A stretch of 64,000 nucleotides of DNA from Dehalococcoidia bacterium (GTDB lineage Bacteria; Chloroflexota; Dehalococcoidia; Lucifugimonadales; UBA3495). Of the stretch, positions 47,783-56,310 are shown piece after piece. Each line of letters starts with the position of its first letter. Within the stretch, counting starts at the first letter, position 1. The notes beneath the pieces were generated by a model. That model saw only the letters and a list, made by a program, of their open reading frames with translations, had not been told where the DNA came from and ran no database searches. A program made the translations under genes and the position numbers. Location of the stretch: assembly GCA_965232835.1 (NCBI GenBank), contig OZ247426.1, positions 924,974 to 988,973 of the forward strand. The letters are read 5' to 3'.

Positions 47783-49162
47783 CTAGGAATCGCCCGCTGC
47801 CGCGCTGGCAACCCCGTCTTCATTCACAGAGACAGGAGCGGGCTGGGTTCCCGAAAGCCTGGGCCGCCGCGCTATTAGGAACAGCAGGGCGCCAATGCCA
47901 TTCAGTCCGGCCAGGGAAATGAAGGCCAGGTCATAGTCTCCAAGCTGATCCCGCATGAATCCTGCCATGGGGCCGGCTACAAGGAGCATGGCGTTCATCG
48001 GCAGTGTCGAGATCCCCAGTATTTTCCCGAAAGATGCCCGACCGAAATAGTCGCCCCTGATGGCAGTGGTCAGCGGAGTCCGCCCTCCAAAACCTATGCC
48101 GAACAGGACGGCGAACAGGAAAATCATTGCCAAATTCGGCGCAAGTACCAGTACGACAACAGCCACGGCCTGGAGTGCCGTGAAAGCAAACAGGGCCACG
48201 TTTTTCGGAACGCGATCTCCGATGTATCCACCAGCAAACTGGAACACAATGGATACTGCGGTGTAGACGATCACCAAGCTGGCGGTGACCTGAACCCCGT
48301 AGCCCAGGTCCTTCATCAGAAGACCGAGCTGGGACATGATGGCGAGGATTATCATTGAACCAAGCCCGTGGCCAAAGGAGATGCACCAGAAGGCTTGAGT
48401 ACGCAACGCCTGGCGAACGGTGAGACCGTCCTCAACCTCAACGGGATCAGGGCCCGGGTCATCCCCAGAGACTGCGGAACGAGTTTCTCTATAGTCTCCG
48501 TCCGGGTTCAATCCCCGGTCTTCCGGCCTGCTGAAAATGAATCTCGGCAGTATCAGGGCGCAGACGAATACGATGCAGGCGACGAGCAGCCCAGTGTTGC
48601 GCCAACCCAGCCGCCCCTCTGTATCCTCCCCGTCCCACGGGAAGGACGGGAGCCAATCCAGCCGCAAGACCTCCGGGTCGATAGCCCAGGCGATGGCCGG
48701 AACGATGGTCATGGCACCGACGCCCATACCGACCATCACGATTCCCATGGCGGTCCCGCGCTGCCTGACGAACCAATGGTTCATCAGGGTCATGAGGGGA
48801 ACCCAGCCGCCCAACCCCTGGCCCATTGACAGAAGGATAAACGCGACCAGAAACCACCAGAAGCTATGAGTGAAGGCAAAGAATACAAAGGCGGCGGAAA
48901 GGGCCAGCAGCCCGATCATCACCATTCGTCGAGCACCGAAGCGGTCAGCCAGGTATCCCTCGAGCACTCCAAACAGACCGCCTTCGACCCTCGTCATGGT
49001 CAGTGCCAGGCTGAGCTGAAACCTGGACCATTCCGGGAACGTGGACTGAATGGCGACGACCCAGACCGCGTTGGCGTGGAACACCGGGACCGAAGTGATA
49101 GCCATTACTATGCCGGCGACTACAGTGAGCCACCAGCCGTAGAAAATCTTACGTTCCCTCAA
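47783..49162 (-). CDS. MFS transporter (oxalate/formate-antiporter-like), tandem paralog 2
   Basis: FYGWWLTVVAGIVMAIT..., GYLADRFGARRMVMIGL, 12 TM segments. Confidence 0.88.
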   Translation of the reverse strand: MRERKIFYGWWLTVVAGIVMAITSVPVFHANAVWVVAIQSTFPEWSRFQLSLALTMTRVEGGLFGVLEGYLADRFGARRMVMIGLLALSAAFVFFAFTHSFWWFLVAFILLSMGQGLGGWVPLMTLMNHWFVRQRGTAMGIVMVGMGVGAMTIVPAIAWAIDPEVLRLDWLPSFPWDGEDTEGRLGWRNTGLLVACIVFVCALILPRFIFSRPEDRGLNPDGDYRETRSAVSGDDPGPDPVEVEDGLTVRQALRTQAFWCISFGHGLGSMIILAIMSQLGLLMKDLGYGVQVTASLVIVYTAVSIVFQFAGGYIGDRVPKNVALFAFTALQAVAVVVLVLAPNLAMIFLFAVLFGIGFGGRTPLTTAIRGDYFGRASFGKILGISTLPMNAMLLVAGPMAGFMRDQLGDYDLAFISLAGLNGIGALLFLIARRPRLSGTQPAPVSVNEDGVASAAAGDS

Positions 49163-49530
49163 TTGTTCTCACTGCGGGGACGATTTTGCCATCTTCAGCA
49201 AACGCGAGCGGGCAAATCACAACGTTCGGTTGCGAGACGTTTTTCTCACCGGGAACTGGAGAAATCCATACTATTGGAGCGAAGTTATCATAGTGCACAA
49301 TACAGTCCGCTTCAAGGGTGTCGGTGCGCCTCTACTTCCATCTCGACGGCGACCAAAGTGAGTGGTTGTGACGGATTTACGCACTCGTTGCCAAGATTCC
49401 CAACCGGTGTGCGACATGGTAAATTAGCGGTCAACATCAACGAGTGGATTTGGCGGCCCCGGCCGTCTGAACCAAAGCGTGGGCCGGAATCGCGAAATCG
49501 CCCGGTGCTTACAGGCTTAACGGAGGGCCA

Positions 49531-50616
49531 ATGAAATACGGAATGTTTATGATGCCTTCGCATCCGCCGGAACGGCAGCTTTACGAGGCCCATCAGTGGG
49601 ATCTGGACTGTTTGCAGATGGGCGACGAGTTGGGCTTCTCGGAGGCGTGGATCGGAGAGCACTTCACCTCCCCGTGGGAACCTATCCCCGCCCCAGACCT
49701 GATGATCGCCCAGGCGCTTATGAGGACCAAGAACATCAAGCTGTGCACCGGCGTTCACCTCCTGCCCTACCACCATCCCGCCGAGTTGGCCTGCCGCGTG
49801 GCCTACCTAGACCACATGGCCCAGGGCCGGTTCATGTTTGGCATCGGCTCCAGCGGCCTGCCCACCGACTACCGCCTGTTCGACGTCGACGGGATGAACG
49901 GCCAGCACCGGCGCATGACCCGCGAGTCCATCGATATCATCCTCAAACTCTGGGAGAGTGATGAGCCTTTCGAGTACAAGGGCGATTTCTGGGACGTCAA
50001 CTACCCGGAGCCCATGCTGGACACGCTGCGGTTCTTCATCAAGCCGTACCAGAAGCCGCACCCGCCCGTGGGCGTGGCTTCCGTCAGCATAGGCTCGGAG
50101 ACACTAAAGATCGCCGGGGAGCGCGGCTTCATCCCCATGAGCCTGGCTTTCAACCAGGACTACGTCATCAGCCACTGGGACGCCATCGCGGAGGGCGCCG
50201 CCCGGGGTGGGCGGATCCCGAAGCGTTCGGATTGGCGCATCACCCGCGACGTGTGGGTTGCCGACTCAGACGACGAGGCCATGGACGGCGCGGTCAACGG
50301 GATGCTGGGCCGCGTCTGGGGCGACTACCTGCTGCCGCTGTTCAGCGCCTTCGGCCTGCTCCACGTCATCAAGCACGACTCCAGCGTGCCCGACGAGGCG
50401 GTGACGCCCGAATACATGGCGGAACACGTGTGGCTTGTCGGCTCCCCCGACACAGTGGAAAAGAGGCTGCTCAACCTCTACGAGATGTGCGGCGGATTCG
50501 GGACCTTGCTCACCCTGATATACGACAACATCGAAAACCAGAAGGCCTGGGAAAAGTCCATGAACCTCTTCGCCAACGACGTAATGCCCAGGCTTGCCGA
50601 ACTGAACCCCGACTAG
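49531..50616 (+). CDS. LLM-class (luciferase-like) flavin-dependent monooxygenase
   Basis: MKYGMFMMPSHPP..., LGFSEAWIGEHFTSPWEPIPAPDLMIAQAL, GRFMFGIGSSG. Confidence 0.88.
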   Translation: MKYGMFMMPSHPPERQLYEAHQWDLDCLQMGDELGFSEAWIGEHFTSPWEPIPAPDLMIAQALMRTKNIKLCTGVHLLPYHHPAELACRVAYLDHMAQGRFMFGIGSSGLPTDYRLFDVDGMNGQHRRMTRESIDIILKLWESDEPFEYKGDFWDVNYPEPMLDTLRFFIKPYQKPHPPVGVASVSIGSETLKIAGERGFIPMSLAFNQDYVISHWDAIAEGAARGGRIPKRSDWRITRDVWVADSDDEAMDGAVNGMLGRVWGDYLLPLFSAFGLLHVIKHDSSVPDEAVTPEYMAEHVWLVGSPDTVEKRLLNLYEMCGGFGTLLTLIYDNIENQKAWEKSMNLFANDVMPRLAELNPD

Positions 50617-50645
50617 ACCCGCAGGGTCTGATCGAACAAACAACG

Positions 50646-50678
50646 CGGGCCGTCCGAAATTCGGACGGCCCGTTTGCG
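50646..50678. terminator. Intrinsic terminator between convergent genes
   Basis: A roughly 12-bp GC-rich stem CGGGCCGTCCGA / TCGGACGGCCCG followed by TTTGCG. Confidence 0.7.
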
Positions 50679-50720
50679 TATCCAGGGTCGTAGGGTGCGG
50701 ATCGGCAGGTGGGCCATGAG

Positions 50721-51104
50721 TCAGCGTGCGTCGGCCAGTCCTTCGATCAGGTCAACGTAGTCGGCAACACCGCGGATCAAGTCGGGAATATCATCGTGCC
50801 AAACGCCTCCATAGAAGGCCTCGATATGCAGGTGATAGACCACATCGGAGAACAGTTGGCGCATCAGAATCCACTCAGCTCCCTGTTCTCTGGCCAGTGC
50901 TCGGATCCCCGCATCTATGTTTGTGCTCCTGGGGCTTTGCGTTCCGTAGATTTCCAGAACAACAGCCTGGGTCGCGTTGCGGGTGGCGCACCAAGCCTTC
51001 TCGGCGGCGTCACGCCAGTCGCCCGCCTCCAGCCGTGCCAGTGCCTCACGGTGGATAGCACGGGCGTCGCTAATCAGGTCTCTTGCCGAAGCGTTCTTGA
51101 GCAT
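50721..51104 (-). CDS. PaREP1/HEPN-like helical protein (orphan)
   Basis: DWRDAAEKAWCATRNATQAVVLEIYG......HLHIEAFYGG resembles the PaREP1-type pattern (AAEKxWGA...LH..FY). No nucleotidyltransferase partner ORF was found nearby. Confidence 0.45.
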   Translation of the reverse strand: MLKNASARDLISDARAIHREALARLEAGDWRDAAEKAWCATRNATQAVVLEIYGTQSPRSTNIDAGIRALAREQGAEWILMRQLFSDVVYHLHIEAFYGGVWHDDIPDLIRGVADYVDLIEGLADAR

Positions 51105-51305
51105 TACGTTTGCGTCTTGACCAGTACAATTGTTGGGGTCTATCTACAGGATAGAGCCGACCACGGAAATCGGCAACGGTCTAGGACCGGCGACGCTGAG
51201 CCCTGTCGATGTTACCCGTGCGACGCCCGGAGTTAATGCCGCCGTAACAAAACCGCCTCATAATGGAAGAAGCAATCGTTAACGCAACCGGAAAGGATAG
51301 ACGGA

Positions 51306-52688
51306 GTGGTTACTGTCTCAGATGCCAGATCTTTGGAATTTTACAACGAGTGGCAGGATGCCAACGGCGGCCTGAGGCCCCACTACCAGGGCCTGTCGGG
51401 GGCGATTGAGTCGGCGGGTTTCGAGAATCTCGCCTCCCGCTTCGCCGATGCCGGAAGGCGCGTCGGCCTGGACTCGGTCACCTTCTACCTGGATCCGGGC
51501 AGCTACCGGAACATGCCCACCGACTTTGTGCCCAGAGTGATTCCACTGGAGCACTGGGAGACCATAGCCGCCGGCGTTGAGCAGCGGCTCAGGTCAATCA
51601 ACAGGTTCCTGGCGGACCTCTACACCGGCCAGCAGGACATCGTTCCGGACGACGTCATCTACTCGTCCCAGCACTTCTATCCCGAAGTGCAGGGATTCCG
51701 CCCGCCGAAAGACATCTTCGTCCACATTTACGGCATTGATCTGGTGCACCTCGGGGACGGCCACTACGTGGTCCTGGAAGACAACCTGCGCATCCCCTCC
51801 GGCATCTCATACCAGCTGAAGGCCAGGGAGATGGCCGAAGAGCTGTTTCCGGAATTCACCAGCGCCTACAACATCGTGCCCTACGACATCCGGGACGCCT
51901 ACCTCGGGATGTTCCAGTCGCTGACGGACAATCCGGACCCGGTGGTGGTACTGCTGACCGATGGCAAATACGGATCGGCTTTTTTCGAGCACCGCTACCT
52001 GTCGGAATTGCTGGACATCCCGTTGGTGGAGGGTCCGGACCTGTACGTGGCACCTGACGGGTACGTTTACGCTCGCACCCTGGACGCCGACGTGAAGGTG
52101 GACATCATCTACCGCAGGGTGGAGGACCTGGACCTATTTGTTCCTGGGCTGGGCGATGCCTATCTCGACGGCAAGGTGGTCCTGGTTAATGGCATCGGCA
52201 CGGGGGCCGCAGACGACAAGCTGGTGTTTCTCTGGGTCCCGGACATGATCCGGCACTATCTGGGCCAGGAGGCAATTCTTACCCAGGCAACCAGCTACAA
52301 TCCGGCCGATGCGGAGAGCCGACGGTTCATGCTGGAAAACCTGGAGAGCCTCGTCATCAAGACCCGCCAGGGTTACGGCGGCCTGGGCGTTTTCGTTATG
52401 CCTGACTTGGGCGAGGGGTACAAGGCCAGGGTCGCCAACAACATTCTGCAAAATCCACTATCTTTCATTGCCCAGGAGACCTTGGATTTTTCGCAGCACA
52501 TGGTTTTTAATGAGGAGACTCGCAGTCTGGAGCCCCACCACGTCGACCTCCGCGTGTTCGCGGTGCAGAGCGGCGACGGGACGGTCTCGGTTTTTCCTGG
52601 CGGCCTTACGCGAGTTGCCCAGGCAGGCAGCAGAATCACAAACAACTCATCCGGCGGATTATGCAAACCAACGTGGGTAGTCCGATAG
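51306..52688 (+). CDS. Circularly permuted ATP-grasp type 2 protein (COG2308 / DUF404-DUF407 family)
   Basis: YNEWQDANGGLRPHYQGL..., the length, and the C-terminal LRVFAV..G....VFPGGLTRVA....ITNNSSGG are typical of this family. GTG start per the track. Confidence 0.8.
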   Translation: MVTVSDARSLEFYNEWQDANGGLRPHYQGLSGAIESAGFENLASRFADAGRRVGLDSVTFYLDPGSYRNMPTDFVPRVIPLEHWETIAAGVEQRLRSINRFLADLYTGQQDIVPDDVIYSSQHFYPEVQGFRPPKDIFVHIYGIDLVHLGDGHYVVLEDNLRIPSGISYQLKAREMAEELFPEFTSAYNIVPYDIRDAYLGMFQSLTDNPDPVVVLLTDGKYGSAFFEHRYLSELLDIPLVEGPDLYVAPDGYVYARTLDADVKVDIIYRRVEDLDLFVPGLGDAYLDGKVVLVNGIGTGAADDKLVFLWVPDMIRHYLGQEAILTQATSYNPADAESRRFMLENLESLVIKTRQGYGGLGVFVMPDLGEGYKARVANNILQNPLSFIAQETLDFSQHMVFNEETRSLEPHHVDLRVFAVQSGDGTVSVFPGGLTRVAQAGSRITNNSSGGLCKPTWVVR

Positions 52689-52708
52689 AAACTGTCACTG
52701 CATCGTTT

Positions 52709-53617
52709 ATGTATGCGGTCAGATACGGCTACTCGGATCCGGTGATCAATAACGACAATCAGCTGAGGATTTTCCCTCGCGAGGGAGAGGGCCAGACCAG
52801 TTCGTCCTCCCAGGTCTGGTCCATTCCAAGCGGCCGGGGTGTGGAGTTCAAGGACAGATTCGGCAACCGGGTCCACCGACTGCGTGTCATGCAACCTCAT
52901 ACCACCTTCATAGTCGCCGCCGCAGGAACTGTGCATCTTTCCCACGAGCCTCCGGCCCGGACGGAATTGCCAATCGCCGACCTGCTGGACCTGCCCGAAA
53001 GCTTTGAATATACGGCCATATCACCCCTCGTAGACCCGGAGACCGTGTCCGGCCCCGCGTACAACATTGCCGGAGGGACCGAATCGCTGCTCTCAGCCGT
53101 CGATGGAGTGGTGCAGTGGGTGTATGAGAACATTGTCTACAGGCGAGGGACCACCACGATTTCCACCACCGCTGACCAGGTGTTGGAATCCGGGGCGGGA
53201 GTATGCCAGGACAAGACTCATCTGGCTCTGGGCATGCTGCGGGCCTTGAAAATACCCTGCCGATACGTCAGTGGCCTGATCTGCGGTCAGACCGGTGAAA
53301 CCCATTCATGGGTTGAGTTCTACCATCCGCAGCAGGGGTGGCTGGGAGCCGACCCGACCAGGGGAGGCACTCTGCCGCCGGCGAGCGATTACGTCAAACT
53401 GGGAGTGGGGCGGGACTACACCGACGTTTCCCCGGTAACCGGTTCGTTTCTCTCCACCGGCGCCGCCGTGGATATCGCCGCCATCGCCGATGTGCGGCTG
53501 TCAGACACCATGCCCTCCCTTGAGGATGCCCTTCAACTGCTGGAACAGGCATACATAGTAAACAACCAACGCGGGACCTCAGGTCACTCGCTGGAAAACC
53601 CGGAGAAGGATTTATGA
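52709..53617 (+). CDS. Transglutaminase-like cysteine protease family protein (N-terminal Bact_transglu_N plus TGase core)
   Basis: N-terminus YAVRYGYSDPVINNDNQLRIFPR. The core has GAGVCQDKTHLALGMLRALKIPCRYVSG and ETHSWVEFY...GWLGADPT (a Cys-His-Asp triad). ATG 52709 is preferred; the track start 52661 would overlap the ATP-grasp gene by 28 nt. Confidence 0.85.
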   Translation: MYAVRYGYSDPVINNDNQLRIFPREGEGQTSSSSQVWSIPSGRGVEFKDRFGNRVHRLRVMQPHTTFIVAAAGTVHLSHEPPARTELPIADLLDLPESFEYTAISPLVDPETVSGPAYNIAGGTESLLSAVDGVVQWVYENIVYRRGTTTISTTADQVLESGAGVCQDKTHLALGMLRALKIPCRYVSGLICGQTGETHSWVEFYHPQQGWLGADPTRGGTLPPASDYVKLGVGRDYTDVSPVTGSFLSTGAAVDIAAIADVRLSDTMPSLEDALQLLEQAYIVNNQRGTSGHSLENPEKDL

Positions 53618-54147
53618 CAAACGCGGCCGATCCCAGGGCGGTATCTCGTGGTGCGGACCGATGGCTGACGGACTCCAGGGTCTACAACCTGGTGTGGCTG
53701 GGGCGCTGGATCGAGCGGGCTCAGACCATCGCCCGCGTGGTGCGATGGGCAGCAATGCAGGACACGGGAGCCACCCGGCACGACATTGAAGGCGTGCTGG
53801 AAATGGCAGCCAACATCAGGGGCCTCTCAGTGGGACATTCCGACACAGCACTGGACCTGCTGCTTACGCGTGACAGCAGCGCGTCCCTGCGCGGATGCCT
53901 GGAGGCTGCCAGGTTCAACGCAACTCACGTGGCTCCCGTCGAGGTACTGCAGATACTCGGCGAAGCGGTAGACGCGGTGCAGAAGGAAGGGCCGGCCATT
54001 ACCACCGCCGAAGAGGTCATCGGCTTTATGGACCGTTTGCTGCCCATCCTCGACAGGCTGCATTCGGCCATAGAGGAATCGTGGTTTCACTCGGCGCCAA
54101 TGTCGGAAGAGGAAGTCTATCGCCGCTTCGTGCAGCAACAGCAGTAA
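53614..54147 (+). CDS. Alpha-E domain protein (COG2307 / DUF403), short form (177 aa)
   Basis: VYNLVWLGRWIERAQTIARVV matches the alpha-E N-terminal signature (LYWmgRYlERAEntaR). There is a 4-nt overlap with the TGase gene. Confidence 0.65.
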   Translation: MTNAADPRAVSRGADRWLTDSRVYNLVWLGRWIERAQTIARVVRWAAMQDTGATRHDIEGVLEMAANIRGLSVGHSDTALDLLLTRDSSASLRGCLEAARFNATHVAPVEVLQILGEAVDAVQKEGPAITTAEEVIGFMDRLLPILDRLHSAIEESWFHSAPMSEEEVYRRFVQQQQ

Positions 54148-54280
54148 CCTTCCCGTATCCCGGTCCCACAGGCAGCCCGGTTCATGACCGGAGGGTGTTT
54201 ACTTCTCGCTCCCCACAGGAGAAAGGGCCGATTTGGAGCGAGGTCCTGCGTCAGCAGGCTGGCACCGAAAGAAGGGGGCT

Positions 54281-54313
54281 CCCTCACCCTAACCCTTTCC
54301 CAGAGGGAGAGGG
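54281..54313. repeat. GGGAGAGGG-family hairpin repeat
   Basis: CCCTCACCCTAA-CCCTTTCCC-aga-GGGAGAGGG. Confidence 0.8.
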
Positions 54314-54329
54314 AATTTGTAGCACCCGC

Positions 54330-55376
54330 CTACGGCGCCTGGGCGCTCGGCGCTCCTCGGGTCCGCCGGCGCAGTGGGGCGCTCACCTCGTGCATGTAGC
54401 CCAGTATCTCCCGGTGTGACCGCCAGAAGCCGGTCTCGTGATACGGAATGCCATTTTCGAGGCAGAAGTCCTTCACCACCTCACGGGCCTTCCTCAGCTG
54501 GTTGCGCGGCATGTTTGGGAAGAGATGGTGCTCAATCTGGTAGTTCAGTCCGCCGTAGGCGAAATCGATTACCGGATTGGGAATCACGTCGCGGGAAGTC
54601 AGCGCCTGCTGACGCATGTAGTCCAACTTCATTCCCGGTTCCAGGACGGGCATGCCCTTGTGATTGGGAGCGAACACGGACCCCATGTACAGCCCTCCCA
54701 GCGCTCGGTGCACCACTATGAAAACCACCGCCTGCCAAGCAGGCAGAAAGGCAAACAGCAAACCGGCGTAGAGGCCAACGCCTGCCAGGACCACAGTGAT
54801 CTCCGCCAACGGGTACCGCACCCGCTTCCTGCGCGCCAGGTAGACCAACCCGCCTCCCAGCAGGCTCAGTGAAGTAAGTAGCAGCATGGGGTAGAACAGG
54901 AAGGCCTGGTACGCGACAAGTAGACGCAGTGGCCATTTGGTCTTCAGGGCCTGCTCCTCCGTGAAAGCGAAGACCGACACGTCAATGTCCCCGTCCATGT
55001 CCAACTGGTTTGGATTGCGGTGGTGGGCGTTGTGCTTGTCCTGCCACCAGCTGGGGGTCATGCCGGTAACCAGCCCGGCCAGCAGCATGACGAGGTCGTT
55101 CCTGAAGGCCGAGTGAAACATCTGCCGGTGTCCTGAATCATGGCCAATGAACCCGAACTGGGCGAACACAATGGCCAGGAACACGGCATTCAGCATCTGC
55201 ACCCAGAACTGGTCGAAGAGCACCAGCACAGCGATGCCCACGCCCAGTGCCGCCAATGTGCCAAGCACTTTGACAGCGTAGTACAGGTACTGACGGTCCA
55301 GCAGTCCTCGCTCGGCAACCATACGGCGAAGGTGCAGGTATTCCTTGCTTTCCGAGTTTCGCTGGGACTCTTCCAC
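54330..55376 (-). CDS. Membrane fatty-acid desaturase
   Basis: Three His boxes: HDSGHRQ, HNAHHRNPN and QIEHHLFP. Confidence 0.9.
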   Translation of the reverse strand: MEESQRNSESKEYLHLRRMVAERGLLDRQYLYYAVKVLGTLAALGVGIAVLVLFDQFWVQMLNAVFLAIVFAQFGFIGHDSGHRQMFHSAFRNDLVMLLAGLVTGMTPSWWQDKHNAHHRNPNQLDMDGDIDVSVFAFTEEQALKTKWPLRLLVAYQAFLFYPMLLLTSLSLLGGGLVYLARRKRVRYPLAEITVVLAGVGLYAGLLFAFLPAWQAVVFIVVHRALGGLYMGSVFAPNHKGMPVLEPGMKLDYMRQQALTSRDVIPNPVIDFAYGGLNYQIEHHLFPNMPRNQLRKAREVVKDFCLENGIPYHETGFWRSHREILGYMHEVSAPLRRRTRGAPSAQAP

Positions 55377-55509
55377 CGCCGCTTCAACGAACTGACGGTT
55401 TATGGCAATGCTTGGAATCCCGTGGGCCAGTTTTTGAGTAGCTATGCAGAGGTCTCCATTGTTCTAATGTAGTCGCCCCTCTCGGAGGCTGTCTTCCGGC
55501 AAGCGTGCG

Positions 55510-56310
55510 CTAGGCCACAGGAGCCCTGGCCGTTTCCTCTCGGATTCGGGCTGCCGAATCGCGCAGGGCGTTCAGTACGATGGTCTGCGGAGCGGGCGCC
55601 ACGGAGGTGTAGTTCACGCCCATCTCCAGCAGTTCCTGCGGAGAGAGCCGTAGGGCAGAGTGATTGACCGGAATGTATACCTTGGCCTTGCCTACGGAAT
55701 TAATCCGGGCAGCAAGGTCCACGAATGTCTGCCGCAGCCGAGGATCGTTGGGATCGGTCATGCCCAGGGCGGTGGAAATGTCCGTAGGTCCAAGCGAGAT
55801 CAGATCCACGCCGTCCAGGGCCGCGATCTCCTCCAGTTCATCGAGCCCCCGCTGGTCCTCGGTCATGATGATCAGCAGGATCTCTTCGTTGGAGGTACGC
55901 ATGTGTTCCTGCCACGGCACTGCGCCATAGCCTGCGGCCCGGGTGCTGCCGGCACCGCCCCGTTCTCCCTCGGGAGGGTATCGAACGGCGGCGACGGCCC
56001 TTCTTGCTCCCTCAACTCCTTCGATGTGGGGCACCTGGATGCCCTGGGCCCCCGCGTCTAGGATGCGGAGGATGGTCTTGGGGTTGTTTTCGGGAACCCG
56101 GACGATGGGAGTGATGCCGCACAGGTCAGCCACCCGTATCATCTCCCCAACCGTCCCGATGTCGAAAGCCGAGTGTTCCATGTCGATGAAGGCGCCATCG
56201 AATCCCGCAGCCGCAATGATCTCCACGACCGCCGGATCGGCGAAACCGACGTGGCTGACAATGGCCAGACCGCCCTCTCGCATGACCCGTTTCACCCGGT
56301 TTTCTTTCAT
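55510..56310 (-). CDS. HpcH/HpaI-family aldolase (2-keto-3-deoxy-acid aldolase / citrate-lyase-beta-like)
   Basis: GFDGAFIDMEHSAFD, VRVPENNPKTILRILDAGAQGIQVPHIE, EDQRGLDELEEIAALDGVD. Confidence 0.88.
   Translation of the reverse strand: MKENRVKRVMREGGLAIVSHVGFADPAVVEIIAAAGFDGAFIDMEHSAFDIGTVGEMIRVADLCGITPIVRVPENNPKTILRILDAGAQGIQVPHIEGVEGARRAVAAVRYPPEGERGGAGSTRAAGYGAVPWQEHMRTSNEEILLIIMTEDQRGLDELEEIAALDGVDLISLGPTDISTALGMTDPNDPRLRQTFVDLAARINSVGKAKVYIPVNHSALRLSPQELLEMGVNYTSVAPAPQTIVLNALRDSAARIREETARAPVA

What the first reader, a model, noticed from the sequence alone, without database searches (positions are those of the whole stretch)
51306..54147. Uncharacterised ATP-grasp / transglutaminase / alpha-E module in a non-canonical order with a half-length alpha-E protein
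- **Genes.** Three tightly packed, co-oriented genes encode a circularly permuted type-2 ATP-grasp (51306-52688), a transglutaminase-like Cys-His-Asp protein with the Bact_transglu_N extension (52709-53617), and an alpha-E domain protein (53614-54147, 4-nt overlap).
- **Known background.** The association of these three families (COG2308/COG2307/COG1305) is widely conserved. Comparative genomics has predicted it to be a peptide-ligation or peptide-modification system. As far as I know, no substrate or physiological role has been shown experimentally.
- **What differs here.** In my recollection the usual arrangement is grasp, then alpha-E, then TGase, with an alpha-E protein of about 300 aa. 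Here the order is grasp, then TGase, then alpha-E. The alpha-E protein is only 177 aa and keeps the N-terminal LVWLGRWIERAQTIARVV signature.
- **Neighbourhood.** The module is bracketed by a PaREP1/HEPN-like orphan upstream and a hairpin repeat downstream.
Basis: partly seen in the sequence, partly recalled or inferred. Interest (0 to 1): 0.6.

Follow-up and report, generated by a model that had tools for sequence, protein, structure and literature searches.

The report
Minimal ATP-grasp/transglutaminase module, single-repeat Alpha-E
A known but still function-less bacterial three-enzyme system appears here in a conserved, stripped-down form whose helper protein is one copy of a normally duplicated domain and ends in a strictly conserved glutamine tail, which suggests a concrete substrate to test.

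Summary
**Observation and interpretation.** Both hold. Three co-oriented genes encode:
- a circularly permuted ATP-grasp (51306-52688);
- a Cys-His-Asp transglutaminase-like protein (52709-53617);
- a 177-aa Alpha-E protein (53614-54147).

**Canonical layout.** In nine sampled loci from six lineages the order was ATP-grasp, Alpha-E, TGase. Alpha-E had two units in eight of them.

**What I add.**
1. The roughly 300-aa Alpha-E is an internal duplication, and this protein is exactly one unit, not a truncation.
2. The short form is a family under purifying selection, found in 62 species-level genomes (Dehalococcoidia plus one nested clade labelled Spirochaetia). In 59 of the 62 it follows the TGase gene. 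No fourth gene is conserved and there is no Anbu.
3. Most members end in ...SEEEVYRRFVQQ(Q)n with 2-7 terminal Gln. This tail is the most constrained segment of the gene and is absent from canonical Alpha-E.
4. A conserved 18-bp direct repeat with a −10-like box precedes the operon in the close clade.
5. The PaREP1 gene and the downstream hairpin are incidental.

**Function.** No function is assigned to any form of the system in the literature I could reach.

**Verdict.** New variant of a known kind, of moderate interest. The Gln tail as a built-in substrate for the two enzymes is a testable but unproven idea.

The parts
51232..51264 (+). Conserved upstream cis element: direct repeat GTTAAT-N6-GTAACA (51232-51249), then 9 nt, then a −10-like CATAAT (51259-51264). 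It is a probable activator-dependent promoter or operator of the operon.
   Evidence: - It is alignable in otherwise unalignable upstream sequence.
- It lies 74-120 nt upstream of the grasp start in 25 close-clade loci. There are 4 unrelated hits in 1.75 Mb searched, plus displaced copies in L005 (-390) and L059.
- The 64-kb window has a single hit, against 0.07 expected.
- The function is inferred from geometry only.
51306..52688 (+). Circularly permuted type-2 ATP-grasp, 460 aa, GTG start preceded by GGAAAGGA. Predicted ATP-dependent carboxylate-amine ligase.
   Evidence: - Pfam PF14403, E 7e-106, full profile; PF04174, E 7e-84.
- PDB 3N6X, E 1e-88, a structural-genomics entry with no shown function.
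- A single uninterrupted hit of more than 400 residues in 50 related loci.
52709..53617 (+). Transglutaminase-like (papain-fold) thiol enzyme, 302 aa, with the Bact_transglu_N extension.
   Evidence: - Pfam PF01841, E 7e-23; PF08379, E 4.5e-13.
- Cys166-His199-Asp215 is invariant in 59 of 59 sequences.
- PDB 3ISR, E 1.5e-18, and TgpA 6G49, E 1e-4.
53614..54147 (+). Single-repeat Alpha-E protein, 177 aa. The ER motif (E34-R35) lies in the helix LVWLGRWIERA, at 53689-53721.
   Evidence: - Pfam PF04168, E 4e-11.
- hhalign against the N-half of long Alpha-E: 98.9% probability, E 1e-17. Against the C-half: 97.9%, E 5e-13.
- The AF2 helix pattern equals one of the two repeats in the canonical model.
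- dN/dS 0.12.
54091..54144 (+). C-terminal tail of Alpha-E, SAPMSEEEVYRRFVQQQQ (residues 160-177), ending in four Gln (54133-54144). Candidate substrate, pseudo-substrate or docking peptide.
   Evidence: - E165-E167, R170, R171, F172, Q174 and Q175 are invariant.
- 117 of 134 full-length family members end in Gln, with 1-7 terminal Q.
- 57 of 62 genome copies end in 2-7 Q, using mixed CAG and CAA codons.
- dN/dS is 0.05, the lowest of any segment.
- The tail is absent from long Alpha-E proteins.

Best explanation
**What it is.** This is a three-gene operon encoding a minimal, lineage-specific variant of the ATP-grasp / Alpha-E / transglutaminase-like amidoligase system.

**Shown by sequence**
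- The ATP-grasp is a full-length family member.
- The TGase keeps an invariant Cys-His-Asp triad.
- Alpha-E is exactly one unit of a domain that is tandemly duplicated in canonical proteins.
- The order grasp, TGase, Alpha-E and the tight gene junctions are conserved.
- No fourth gene is conserved with the module.

**Inferred**
- The genes are co-transcribed from an activator-type promoter. TGase and Alpha-E are translationally coupled through the ATGA overlap.
- The single-unit Alpha-E homodimerises, recreating the pseudo-dimeric two-unit fold. It serves as the non-catalytic partner of the two enzymes.
- The ATP-grasp activates a carboxylate as an acyl-phosphate and ligates it to an amine.
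- The thiol enzyme hydrolyses or transfers the corresponding amide.

**Most speculative step, about 30-40% on its own**
- The strictly conserved, flexible C-terminal tail ...EEEVYRRFVQQ(Q)n is what Alpha-E presents to the active sites.
- In that reading, its terminal Gln carboxamide or alpha-carboxylate is the substrate or pseudo-substrate of the TGase and the ligase.
For: **Domains and catalytic residues**
- Domain matches.
- Catalytic triad invariant in 59 of 59 sequences.

**Single unit of a duplicated domain**
- The short-form profile hits both halves of long Alpha-E proteins.
- N-half against C-half: 98.4% probability, E 5e-15. The short protein aligns end to end with either half.
- The canonical model (pLDDT 93.7) repeats its helix pattern twice. 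The short model shows the pattern once, plus a tail helix.

**Conservation**
- 372 homolog clusters and 62 genomes.
- TGase directly precedes Alpha-E in 59 of 62 loci. The same holds in the most divergent members: P0125, P0145, P0153, P0162.
- No compensating extra domain in the grasp or the TGase, and no conserved fourth gene.

**Tail**
- Conservation and terminal Gln counts.
- dN/dS 0.05 against 0.12 for the whole gene.
- Low pLDDT (54-56) over the last 20 residues, consistent with a flexible segment.

**Family-level chemistry and published model**
- A Yersinia homolog of the grasp protein releases Pi from ATP (PMC6376114).
- The published model is ligase plus tag-reversing peptidase (PMC3495828).

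**Upstream element**
-.
Against: **No direct functional evidence**
- No experiment exists for this or any form of the system.
- The Yersinia study detected no stable complexes. Only Anbu was used as bait.
- Homodimerisation is inferred, not modelled, because no multimer tool was available.

**The tail may not be essential**
- A tail-less short subtype of 150-160 aa has the same gene order. So the tail is not needed for the core function.
- The number of Gln varies from 2 to 7, so tail length is not tightly constrained.
- Orphan Alpha-E genes with intact tails persist where the enzyme genes were deleted (L040, L045).

**Other weaknesses**
- The AF2 monomer model is of only moderate confidence (pLDDT 75).
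- The promoter reading rests on geometry alone. The sigma-70 scan found nothing.
Confidence: 0.65

Rival explanations
1. The system makes or recycles a small molecule or a short free peptide, for example a gamma-glutamyl or polyamine amide. Alpha-E is only a regulatory or scaffolding subunit, and its tail is a docking or auto-inhibitory peptide rather than a substrate.
For: - Many ATP-grasp enzymes ligate small molecules. The closest solved structure, 3N6X, was deposited as 'putative glutathionylspermidine synthase'.
- The tail-less subtype keeps the same operon.
- No target protein gene is conserved nearby.
- The canonical operon is induced under nitrogen limitation in P. putida (PMC3235984), which fits metabolite or nitrogen handling.
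Against: - The 3N6X name is an unverified structural-genomics label.
- No transporter or biosynthetic gene is conserved with the module.
- This reading does not explain why the extreme C-terminus must be Gln in 117 of 134 members, nor why the tail is the most constrained segment.
Confidence: 0.3
2. Alpha-E is a protein tag. By analogy with Pup (C-terminal Gln, deamidase, ATP-dependent ligase), the TGase-like enzyme deamidates or activates the terminal Gln. The ATP-grasp then ligates the tail to lysines of target proteins.
For: - Terminal Gln is near-universal, and one member ends in QQE.
- The operon pairs an enzyme fold that acts on Gln carboxamides with a carboxylate-amine ligase.
- Protein tagging is the published prediction for the system.
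Against: - A folded 177-aa helical bundle is large for a tag.
- There is no Gly-Gly motif, no glutamine-synthetase-like ligase, and no proteasome or Anbu nearby.
- The tail-less subtype exists.
- There is no experimental support of any kind.
Confidence: 0.12
3. The short Alpha-E is a truncated, decaying or mis-called remnant of a canonical operon, and the unusual gene order is a meaningless rearrangement.
For: - Some related loci are visibly decaying. The grasp is split or reduced in L017, L026, L031, L049 and L059, and Alpha-E is orphaned in L040, L045 and L061.
- Pfam matches only the first third of its profile.
Against: - Full-length conservation in 62 species-level genomes, down to 38% identity.
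- dN/dS 0.12.
- The protein aligns end to end with a complete repeat unit.
- The order is fixed across the whole family.
- In-situ loss of one unit would leave grasp, Alpha-E, TGase, as in Acinetobacter, not the order seen here.
Confidence: 0.03

Closest known systems
Canonical ATP-grasp / Alpha-E / transglutaminase-like operon (COG2308-COG2307-COG1305), with or without Anbu. Described by Valas & Bourne 2008 and Iyer et al. 2009.
   Same: - The same three protein families, co-oriented and tightly packed.
- Full-length CP ATP-grasp.
- TGase with the Bact_transglu_N extension and a Cys-His-Asp triad.
- Alpha-E with the ER motif.
- Function unknown in both.
   Different: - The order is grasp, TGase, Alpha-E instead of grasp, Alpha-E, TGase (then Anbu) (PMC6376114).
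- Alpha-E has one repeat unit (177 aa) instead of two (about 310 aa).
- It carries a conserved ...EEEVYRRFVQQ(Q)n tail.
- It never has Anbu or any conserved fourth gene.
- It is restricted mainly to Dehalococcoidia MAGs.
Fused ATP-grasp-Alpha-E proteins, seen here in Ralstonia L076 (871 aa) and Tsukamurella L077 (949 aa). From memory, M. tuberculosis Rv2567 and Rv2411c are of this type.
   Same: The same ATP-grasp and Alpha-E families, followed by a TGase gene.
   Different: - There, Alpha-E has two units and is covalently fused after the ligase.
- Here it has one unit, is a separate gene, and lies after the TGase.
Reduced Alpha-E in the Acinetobacter baumannii Anbu operon (L074)
   Same: A shortened Alpha-E of about 198 aa, in which only one unit is recognisable.
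   Different: - An independent event: canonical order with an Anbu gene, the ER motif degenerated to MR, and no Gln tail.
- It is not detectably related to the short-form family beyond the shared domain (hhalign 7% probability against the short profile, 96% against the N-half).
Pup / Dop / PafA pupylation
   Same: - A partner protein whose extreme C-terminus is Gln.
- A Gln-directed amidase-type enzyme paired with an ATP-dependent carboxylate-amine ligase.
- This is analogy only.
   Different: - The ligase fold is ATP-grasp, not glutamine-synthetase-like.
- The amidase fold is papain/transglutaminase, not Dop.
- There is no GGQ motif.
- Alpha-E is a folded 177-aa bundle.
- No proteasome is linked.
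C-terminal tail ligases RimK (ribosomal protein S6) and TTL/TTLL (tubulin)
   Same: - ATP-grasp ligases that act on acidic C-terminal tails.
- PMC3495828 explicitly compares the bacterial ATP-grasp/TGL system to TTL plus a tag-removing peptidase.
- The tail here is acidic (EEE) and C-terminal.
   Different: - The ligase is circularly permuted and gives no RimK or TTL Pfam match at E < 0.1.
- No evidence of tail extension exists.

Membership tests
ATP-grasp / Alpha-E / TGL conserved neighbourhood (COG2308/COG2307/COG1305) | Circularly permuted ATP-grasp (PF14403 / PF04174) | tested here: met
   E 7e-106, profile positions 1-374 of 374. PDB 3N6X, E 1e-88.
ATP-grasp / Alpha-E / TGL conserved neighbourhood (COG2308/COG2307/COG1305) | Alpha-E domain protein with the conserved ER motif (PF04168) | tested here: met
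   - 43.5 bits against a cut-off of 20.8.
- E34-R35 are invariant.
- Profile-profile matches to both halves of canonical Alpha-E.
ATP-grasp / Alpha-E / TGL conserved neighbourhood (COG2308/COG2307/COG1305) | Transglutaminase-like protein with the Cys-His-Asp triad and the Bact_transglu_N extension | tested here: met
   for both domains; triad invariant in 59 of 59 sequences.
ATP-grasp / Alpha-E / TGL conserved neighbourhood (COG2308/COG2307/COG1305) | Conserved gene order ATP-grasp, Alpha-E, TGase (then Anbu) | tested here: not met
   - The window and 59 of 62 related loci have grasp, TGase, Alpha-E.
- Nine canonical loci have the standard order.
- PMC6376114 states the standard order.
ATP-grasp / Alpha-E / TGL conserved neighbourhood (COG2308/COG2307/COG1305) | Alpha-E of about 300 aa comprising two homologous units | tested here: not met
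   The protein is 177 aa and has one unit.
Anbu operon (the subset of the above with a proteasome-like Ntn hydrolase) | An Anbu / proteasome-family gene adjacent to the module | tested here: not met
   - The flanking genes are PaREP1 and a fatty-acid desaturase.
- No conserved fourth gene across 62 loci.
- Positive control: an Anbu gene was found in Acinetobacter L074.
Pupylation (Pup / Dop / PafA) | Small modifier ending in GGQ or GGE, with glutamine-synthetase-like ligase and deamidase genes | tested here: not met
   - A terminal Gln is present, but there is no GG.
- The ligase is an ATP-grasp and the amidase has the papain fold.
- Considered as an analogy only.
RimK / TTL C-terminal tail ligases | Non-permuted ATP-grasp of the RimK or TTL family acting on an acidic C-terminal tail | tested here: not met
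   - No RimK or TTL Pfam hit at E < 0.1. Only weak YheCD and ST ATP-grasp hits, below their cut-offs.
- Whether the tail is modified is not testable with these tools.
PaREP1 / HEPN-T (the upstream neighbour, considered as a possible module part) | PF05942 match and consistent linkage with the module | tested here: not met
   - The Pfam match passes (28.3 bits against 24.4).
- The gene is present in only 9 of 29 syntenic loci. It lies in a variable slot on the opposite strand.

The most novel reading that the evidence does not exclude
The single-unit Alpha-E is itself the substrate of its two neighbours.
- Its invariant Gln-terminated tail is processed by the transglutaminase-like enzyme, by deamidation, trimming or thioester capture.
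- It is then re-ligated or conjugated by the ATP-grasp.
- That would make this a self-contained C-terminal tail-modification or tagging cycle. It would reveal the long-sought biochemical activity of the whole ATP-grasp / Alpha-E / TGL (Anbu-operon) system.
Probability: 0.15. Interest if true: 0.8.

Novelty: new variant of a known kind. Interest (0 to 1): 0.5.

Why it matters
**The open question.** The ATP-grasp / Alpha-E / transglutaminase system, often with Anbu, is widespread in bacteria. It is strongly induced by nitrogen limitation in Pseudomonas and has been discussed in proteasome evolution. After more than 15 years it still has no known substrate.

**What this variant offers.**
- It is the smallest coherent form of the system: three genes, no Anbu, and a single-unit Alpha-E.
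- It shows that Alpha-E is built from a duplicated unit of about 150 aa. That implies a two-fold symmetric partner for the enzymes.
- It carries a highly constrained C-terminal Gln tail. The tail gives a specific, cheap biochemical hypothesis: test tail peptide against ATPase activity, NH3 release and mass shift.
- If the tail is the substrate, the result should transfer to the canonical system.

**If the tail is not the substrate.** The finding remains a tidy example of domain-unit reduction coupled to operon rearrangement in uncultured Dehalococcoidia.

Tried and rejected
**Structure searches**
- Foldseek against the PDB gave only generic helical bundles. Best E was 0.27 for the short model and 1.3 for the high-confidence canonical model.
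- A sequence search of the PDB with the Alpha-E profile gave nothing meaningful.

**RNA and promoter scans**
- Rfam found nothing in 49000-56000.
- The sigma-70 scan found no promoter, and the terminator hits were at background level.

**Neighbouring features rejected as parts**
- The downstream hairpin belongs to a dispersed repeat found at other sites in related genomes. The intergenic fold is not unusually stable.
- PaREP1 is sporadic.
- No conserved fourth gene.
- No second copy of any component in the window.

**Annotation and literature**
- NCBIfam has no model for any of the three proteins.
- Iyer et al. 2009 (PMC3268129) is not held. So I could not check whether the internal duplication of Alpha-E was already described there.
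- The 2026 M. tuberculosis preprint looked promising. It shows only that Rv2411c and Rv2567 do not make GABA-trehalose.

**Hypothesis tests that led nowhere**
- I looked for a different partner next to the orphan Alpha-E genes in L040 and L045. L045 has a TGase remnant, so these loci arose by deletion.
- A multimer prediction could not be run with the tools offered.
Full report
**1. Observation**

The three ORFs are present as described. Pfam confirms every assignment.
- 51306-52688 is a full-length circularly permuted ATP-grasp. It matches PF14403 at E 7e-106 over profile positions 1-374 of 374, and PF04174 at E 7e-84.
- The next gene carries Transglut_core (E 7e-23) and Bact_transglu_N (E 4.5e-13).
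- 53614-54147 matches Alpha-E (PF04168, 43.5 bits against a cut-off of 20.8). Only profile positions 8-94 of 294 are matched.

The starts and junctions also hold.
It leaves 20 nt after the grasp stop, and homologs align from residue 1 with gaps of typically 20-26 nt.
- The ATGA overlap between the TGase stop and the Alpha-E start is real. It recurs in 20 related loci.
- NCBIfam has no model for any of the three proteins.

**2. Is the arrangement really non-canonical?**

- Annotated plasmid records from Deinococcus, Agrobacterium and Caballeronia show grasp followed by Alpha-E of 310-354 aa. A TGase gene follows in Deinococcus and lies further downstream in Caballeronia.
- I annotated those three and six more loci uniformly with my own profiles: Paenibacillus, Klebsiella, Acinetobacter, Sinorhizobium, Ralstonia and Tsukamurella.
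- All nine give grasp, then Alpha-E, then TGase where one is present. Alpha-E is a separate gene or is fused to the ligase.
- PMC6376114 states that the Anbu operon has a conserved order: ATP-grasp, alphaE, transglutaminase-like, Anbu.

So the order here, grasp, TGase, Alpha-E, differs from the norm.

**3. The short Alpha-E is a conserved family**

- A search of 5.8 billion clustered proteins returned 372 clusters. The best 120 are mostly 168-200 aa and 57-99% identical.
- A scan of one genome per species found 62 loci. Most are Dehalococcoidia MAGs. Twelve are MAGs labelled Spirochaetia.
- The Spirochaetia-labelled grasp proteins form one clade nested inside the Dehalococcoidia diversity. Their local GC is 65-71%, against 55-66%. 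This fits one lateral transfer or a labelling issue.
- In 59 of the 62 loci the TGase gene lies directly upstream of Alpha-E, with a grasp gene upstream of that. In 50 of them the grasp is a single uninterrupted hit of more than 400 residues.
- The order holds down to 38-43% Alpha-E identity. It also holds in the most divergent members found by exhaustive profile search: P0125, P0145, P0153 and P0162.
- Globally the family is rare. Only 106 of 1.84 billion representative proteins match the short-form profile at E ≤ 0.001, and many of these are fragments.
- dN/dS across the close clade is 0.12.

**4. 'Half-length' is literally one repeat unit**

- Long Alpha-E proteins matched the short-form profile in two stretches.
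- A direct hmmsearch places the profile (positions about 20-160) on residues about 3-150 and again on about 150-310. Both matches are significant in P0195, P0200, P0201, P0215 and P0221.
- Profile-profile comparison of N-halves against C-halves of 15 long proteins gives 98.4% probability (E 5e-15).
- The short family aligns end to end with the N-half (98.9%, E 1e-17, residues 24-154). It does the same with the C-half (97.9%, E 5e-13, residues 20-161).
- Both halves carry their own G-R-x-x-E-R-A helix.
- An AF2 model of a canonical protein (pLDDT 93.7, pTM 0.92) repeats one helix pattern twice, in residues 2-150 and 155-305. The pattern is one long helix, two or three short helices, two medium helices and one long helix.
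- The 177-aa protein (pLDDT 75) shows this pattern once, plus an extra C-terminal helix.
- Neither the grasp (460 aa) nor the TGase (302 aa) has gained a domain that could replace the missing unit.

The simplest inference is a homodimer that recreates the pseudo-dimer. I could not model this. Neither model has a fold relative in the PDB, and the Alpha-E profile finds no meaningful sequence match there.

**5. A conserved Gln-terminated tail**

The alignment ends in WFHSxPLSEEEVYRRFVQQ(Q)n. Residues E165-E167, R170, R171, F172, Q174 and Q175 are invariant.

Of 134 full-length family members, 117 end in Gln, with 1-7 terminal Q. The other 17 are:
- five members of a tail-less subtype of 150-160 aa;
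- five frameshifted or cut sequences;
- six with a poly-Q run followed by a short extension;
- one that ends in QQE.

Further observations on the tail:
- In the 62 genomes, 57 copies end in 2-7 Q, with mixed codons (165 CAG, 59 CAA). So this is not a pure slippage tract.
- The two intact genes with a residue after the poly-Q (L031, L049) are the two loci where the grasp gene is reduced to a remnant. With only two cases this is suggestive and no more.
- The tail is the most constrained segment: dN/dS is 0.05, against 0.12-0.16 elsewhere.
- It is predicted with low confidence (pLDDT 54-56), consistent with a flexible segment.
- Canonical Alpha-E proteins end a few residues after the equivalent [WY]-[FY] motif and have unrelated C-termini.

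**6. The enzymes look active**

- The TGase triad Cys166-His199-Asp215 is invariant in 59 of 59 sequences.
- Its nearest solved relatives are 3ISR (a putative cysteine protease) and, more weakly, P. aeruginosa TgpA, a protein-glutamine gamma-glutamyltransferase.
- The grasp protein matches 3N6X at E 1e-88. That is a structural-genomics entry without a demonstrated activity.

**7. Boundaries of the module**

- Clustering all neighbouring ORFs across the 62 loci finds only the three module genes (and their shadow ORFs) in 54 or more loci. Everything else is clade-specific synteny in 29 loci or fewer: LLM oxidoreductase, desaturase, aldolase and MOSC.
- There is no Anbu, no peptidase and no candidate substrate gene. 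The window holds no second copy of any component.
- The PaREP1 gene passes Pfam. But it occurs in only 9 of 29 syntenic loci, on the opposite strand, in a slot whose length varies from about 190 to about 3000 nt.
- The downstream hairpin (54280-54314) is a single weak inverted repeat between convergent genes. The same motif, CCCTCACCCTAACCCTCTCCC...GGGAGAGGG, recurs at unrelated intergenic sites in L003, L032 and L051. It is therefore a dispersed REP-like element and not part of the module.

**8. A conserved upstream element**

- The sequence upstream of the grasp start is otherwise unalignable between genomes. Within it, the 18-bp direct repeat GTTAAT-N6-GTAACA (window 51232-51249) is conserved, with a −10-like box 9-10 nt downstream.
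- It lies 74-120 nt upstream of the grasp start in 25 close-clade loci. There are 4 unrelated hits in 1.75 Mb searched, plus displaced copies in L005 and L059.
- It occurs once in the 64-kb window, against 0.07 expected.
- It is absent from the distant clades.
- Two hexamers 12 bp apart that overlap the −35 position is the geometry of OmpR/PhoB/GlnR-type activator sites. From memory it resembles actinobacterial GlnR boxes.
- That would fit the nitrogen-limitation induction of the canonical operon in P. putida (PMC3235984). It remains an untested lead.

**9. Mechanism**

The published prediction has two parts.
- The ATP-grasp ligates peptide tags, comparable to the TTL enzymes.
- The TGL domain reverses them (PMC3495828).

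The only biochemistry reported is Pi release from ATP by the Yersinia grasp protein. Its authors state that no hypothesis has been confirmed. A 2026 preprint adds only that two mycobacterial homologs do not make GABA-trehalose.

My best explanation is a co-transcribed minimal version of that system.
- A homodimeric single-unit Alpha-E acts as the non-catalytic partner.
- The grasp protein carries out acyl-phosphate-mediated amide ligation.
- The TGase carries out thiol-mediated amide hydrolysis or transfer.

The tail gives a specific add-on hypothesis: it is the substrate or pseudo-substrate presented to the enzymes.

The arguments against this are:
- the tail-less subtype has the same operon;
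- the number of Gln is variable;
- orphan tailed genes persist without the enzymes (L040, L045);
- there is no experimental or multimer evidence.

**10. Verdict**

It is a new variant of a known but uncharacterised kind of system, not a new kind. Its value is as a minimal form with a candidate built-in substrate, which could make an old open question testable.

Noticed in passing
window 51232-51264: Conserved direct repeat GTTAAT-N6-GTAACA plus a −10-like CATAAT upstream of the operon. It is present at -74 to -120 in 25 related genomes and is otherwise very rare. The geometry is that of a response-regulator (OmpR/PhoB/GlnR-type) activator site, so it may be a link to nitrogen control.
   Followed up: partly
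It is found in either orientation at unrelated intergenic sites in related Dehalococcoidia genomes, and only once in this window.
   Followed up: partly
window 50721-51104 (minus strand): An orphan PaREP1 (HEPN-T family, mostly archaeal) gene with no adjacent nucleotidyltransferase partner. It sits in a variable-length slot between the LLM oxidoreductase and the operon, and is present in only 9 of 29 syntenic genomes.
   Followed up: partly
L074 6394-8565 (Acinetobacter baumannii, NZ_CP077849.1): A canonical-order Anbu operon with an independently reduced Alpha-E of about 198 aa. Only the N-unit is recognisable and the ER motif has degenerated to MR. A TGase gene and a proteasome-family (Anbu) gene follow it.
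   Followed up: partly
L029, L031, L034, L038, L039, L041, L046, L048, L049, L053, L055, L061: Copies of the module in MAGs labelled Spirochaetia. Those with an intact grasp form one clade nested within the Dehalococcoidia copies. Local GC in all twelve is higher (65-71%). This suggests one lateral transfer or a taxonomic labelling issue.
   Followed up: partly
L017, L026, L031, L049, L059 (grasp split or reduced); L040, L045, L061 (orphan Alpha-E); L046 (about 3.6 kb inserted between grasp and TGase): Several genomes carry decaying or disrupted modules. L045 keeps a TGase C-terminal remnant just upstream of an intact, tailed Alpha-E. Some splits may be long-read assembly errors.
   Followed up: partly
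P0145, P0153, P0156, P0162, P0163 (L069-L071): A second short Alpha-E subtype of 150-160 aa. It ends about 7 residues after the WFH motif, has no Gln tail, and shows the same TGase-then-Alpha-E arrangement. Pfam barely detects these proteins (E 6e-5 to 3e-3).
   Followed up: partly
P0121 (267 aa): A chimeric ORF that joins a short ATP-grasp fragment, the TGase C-terminus and a short Alpha-E. It is probably a deletion-scarred module rather than a natural fusion.
   Followed up: no
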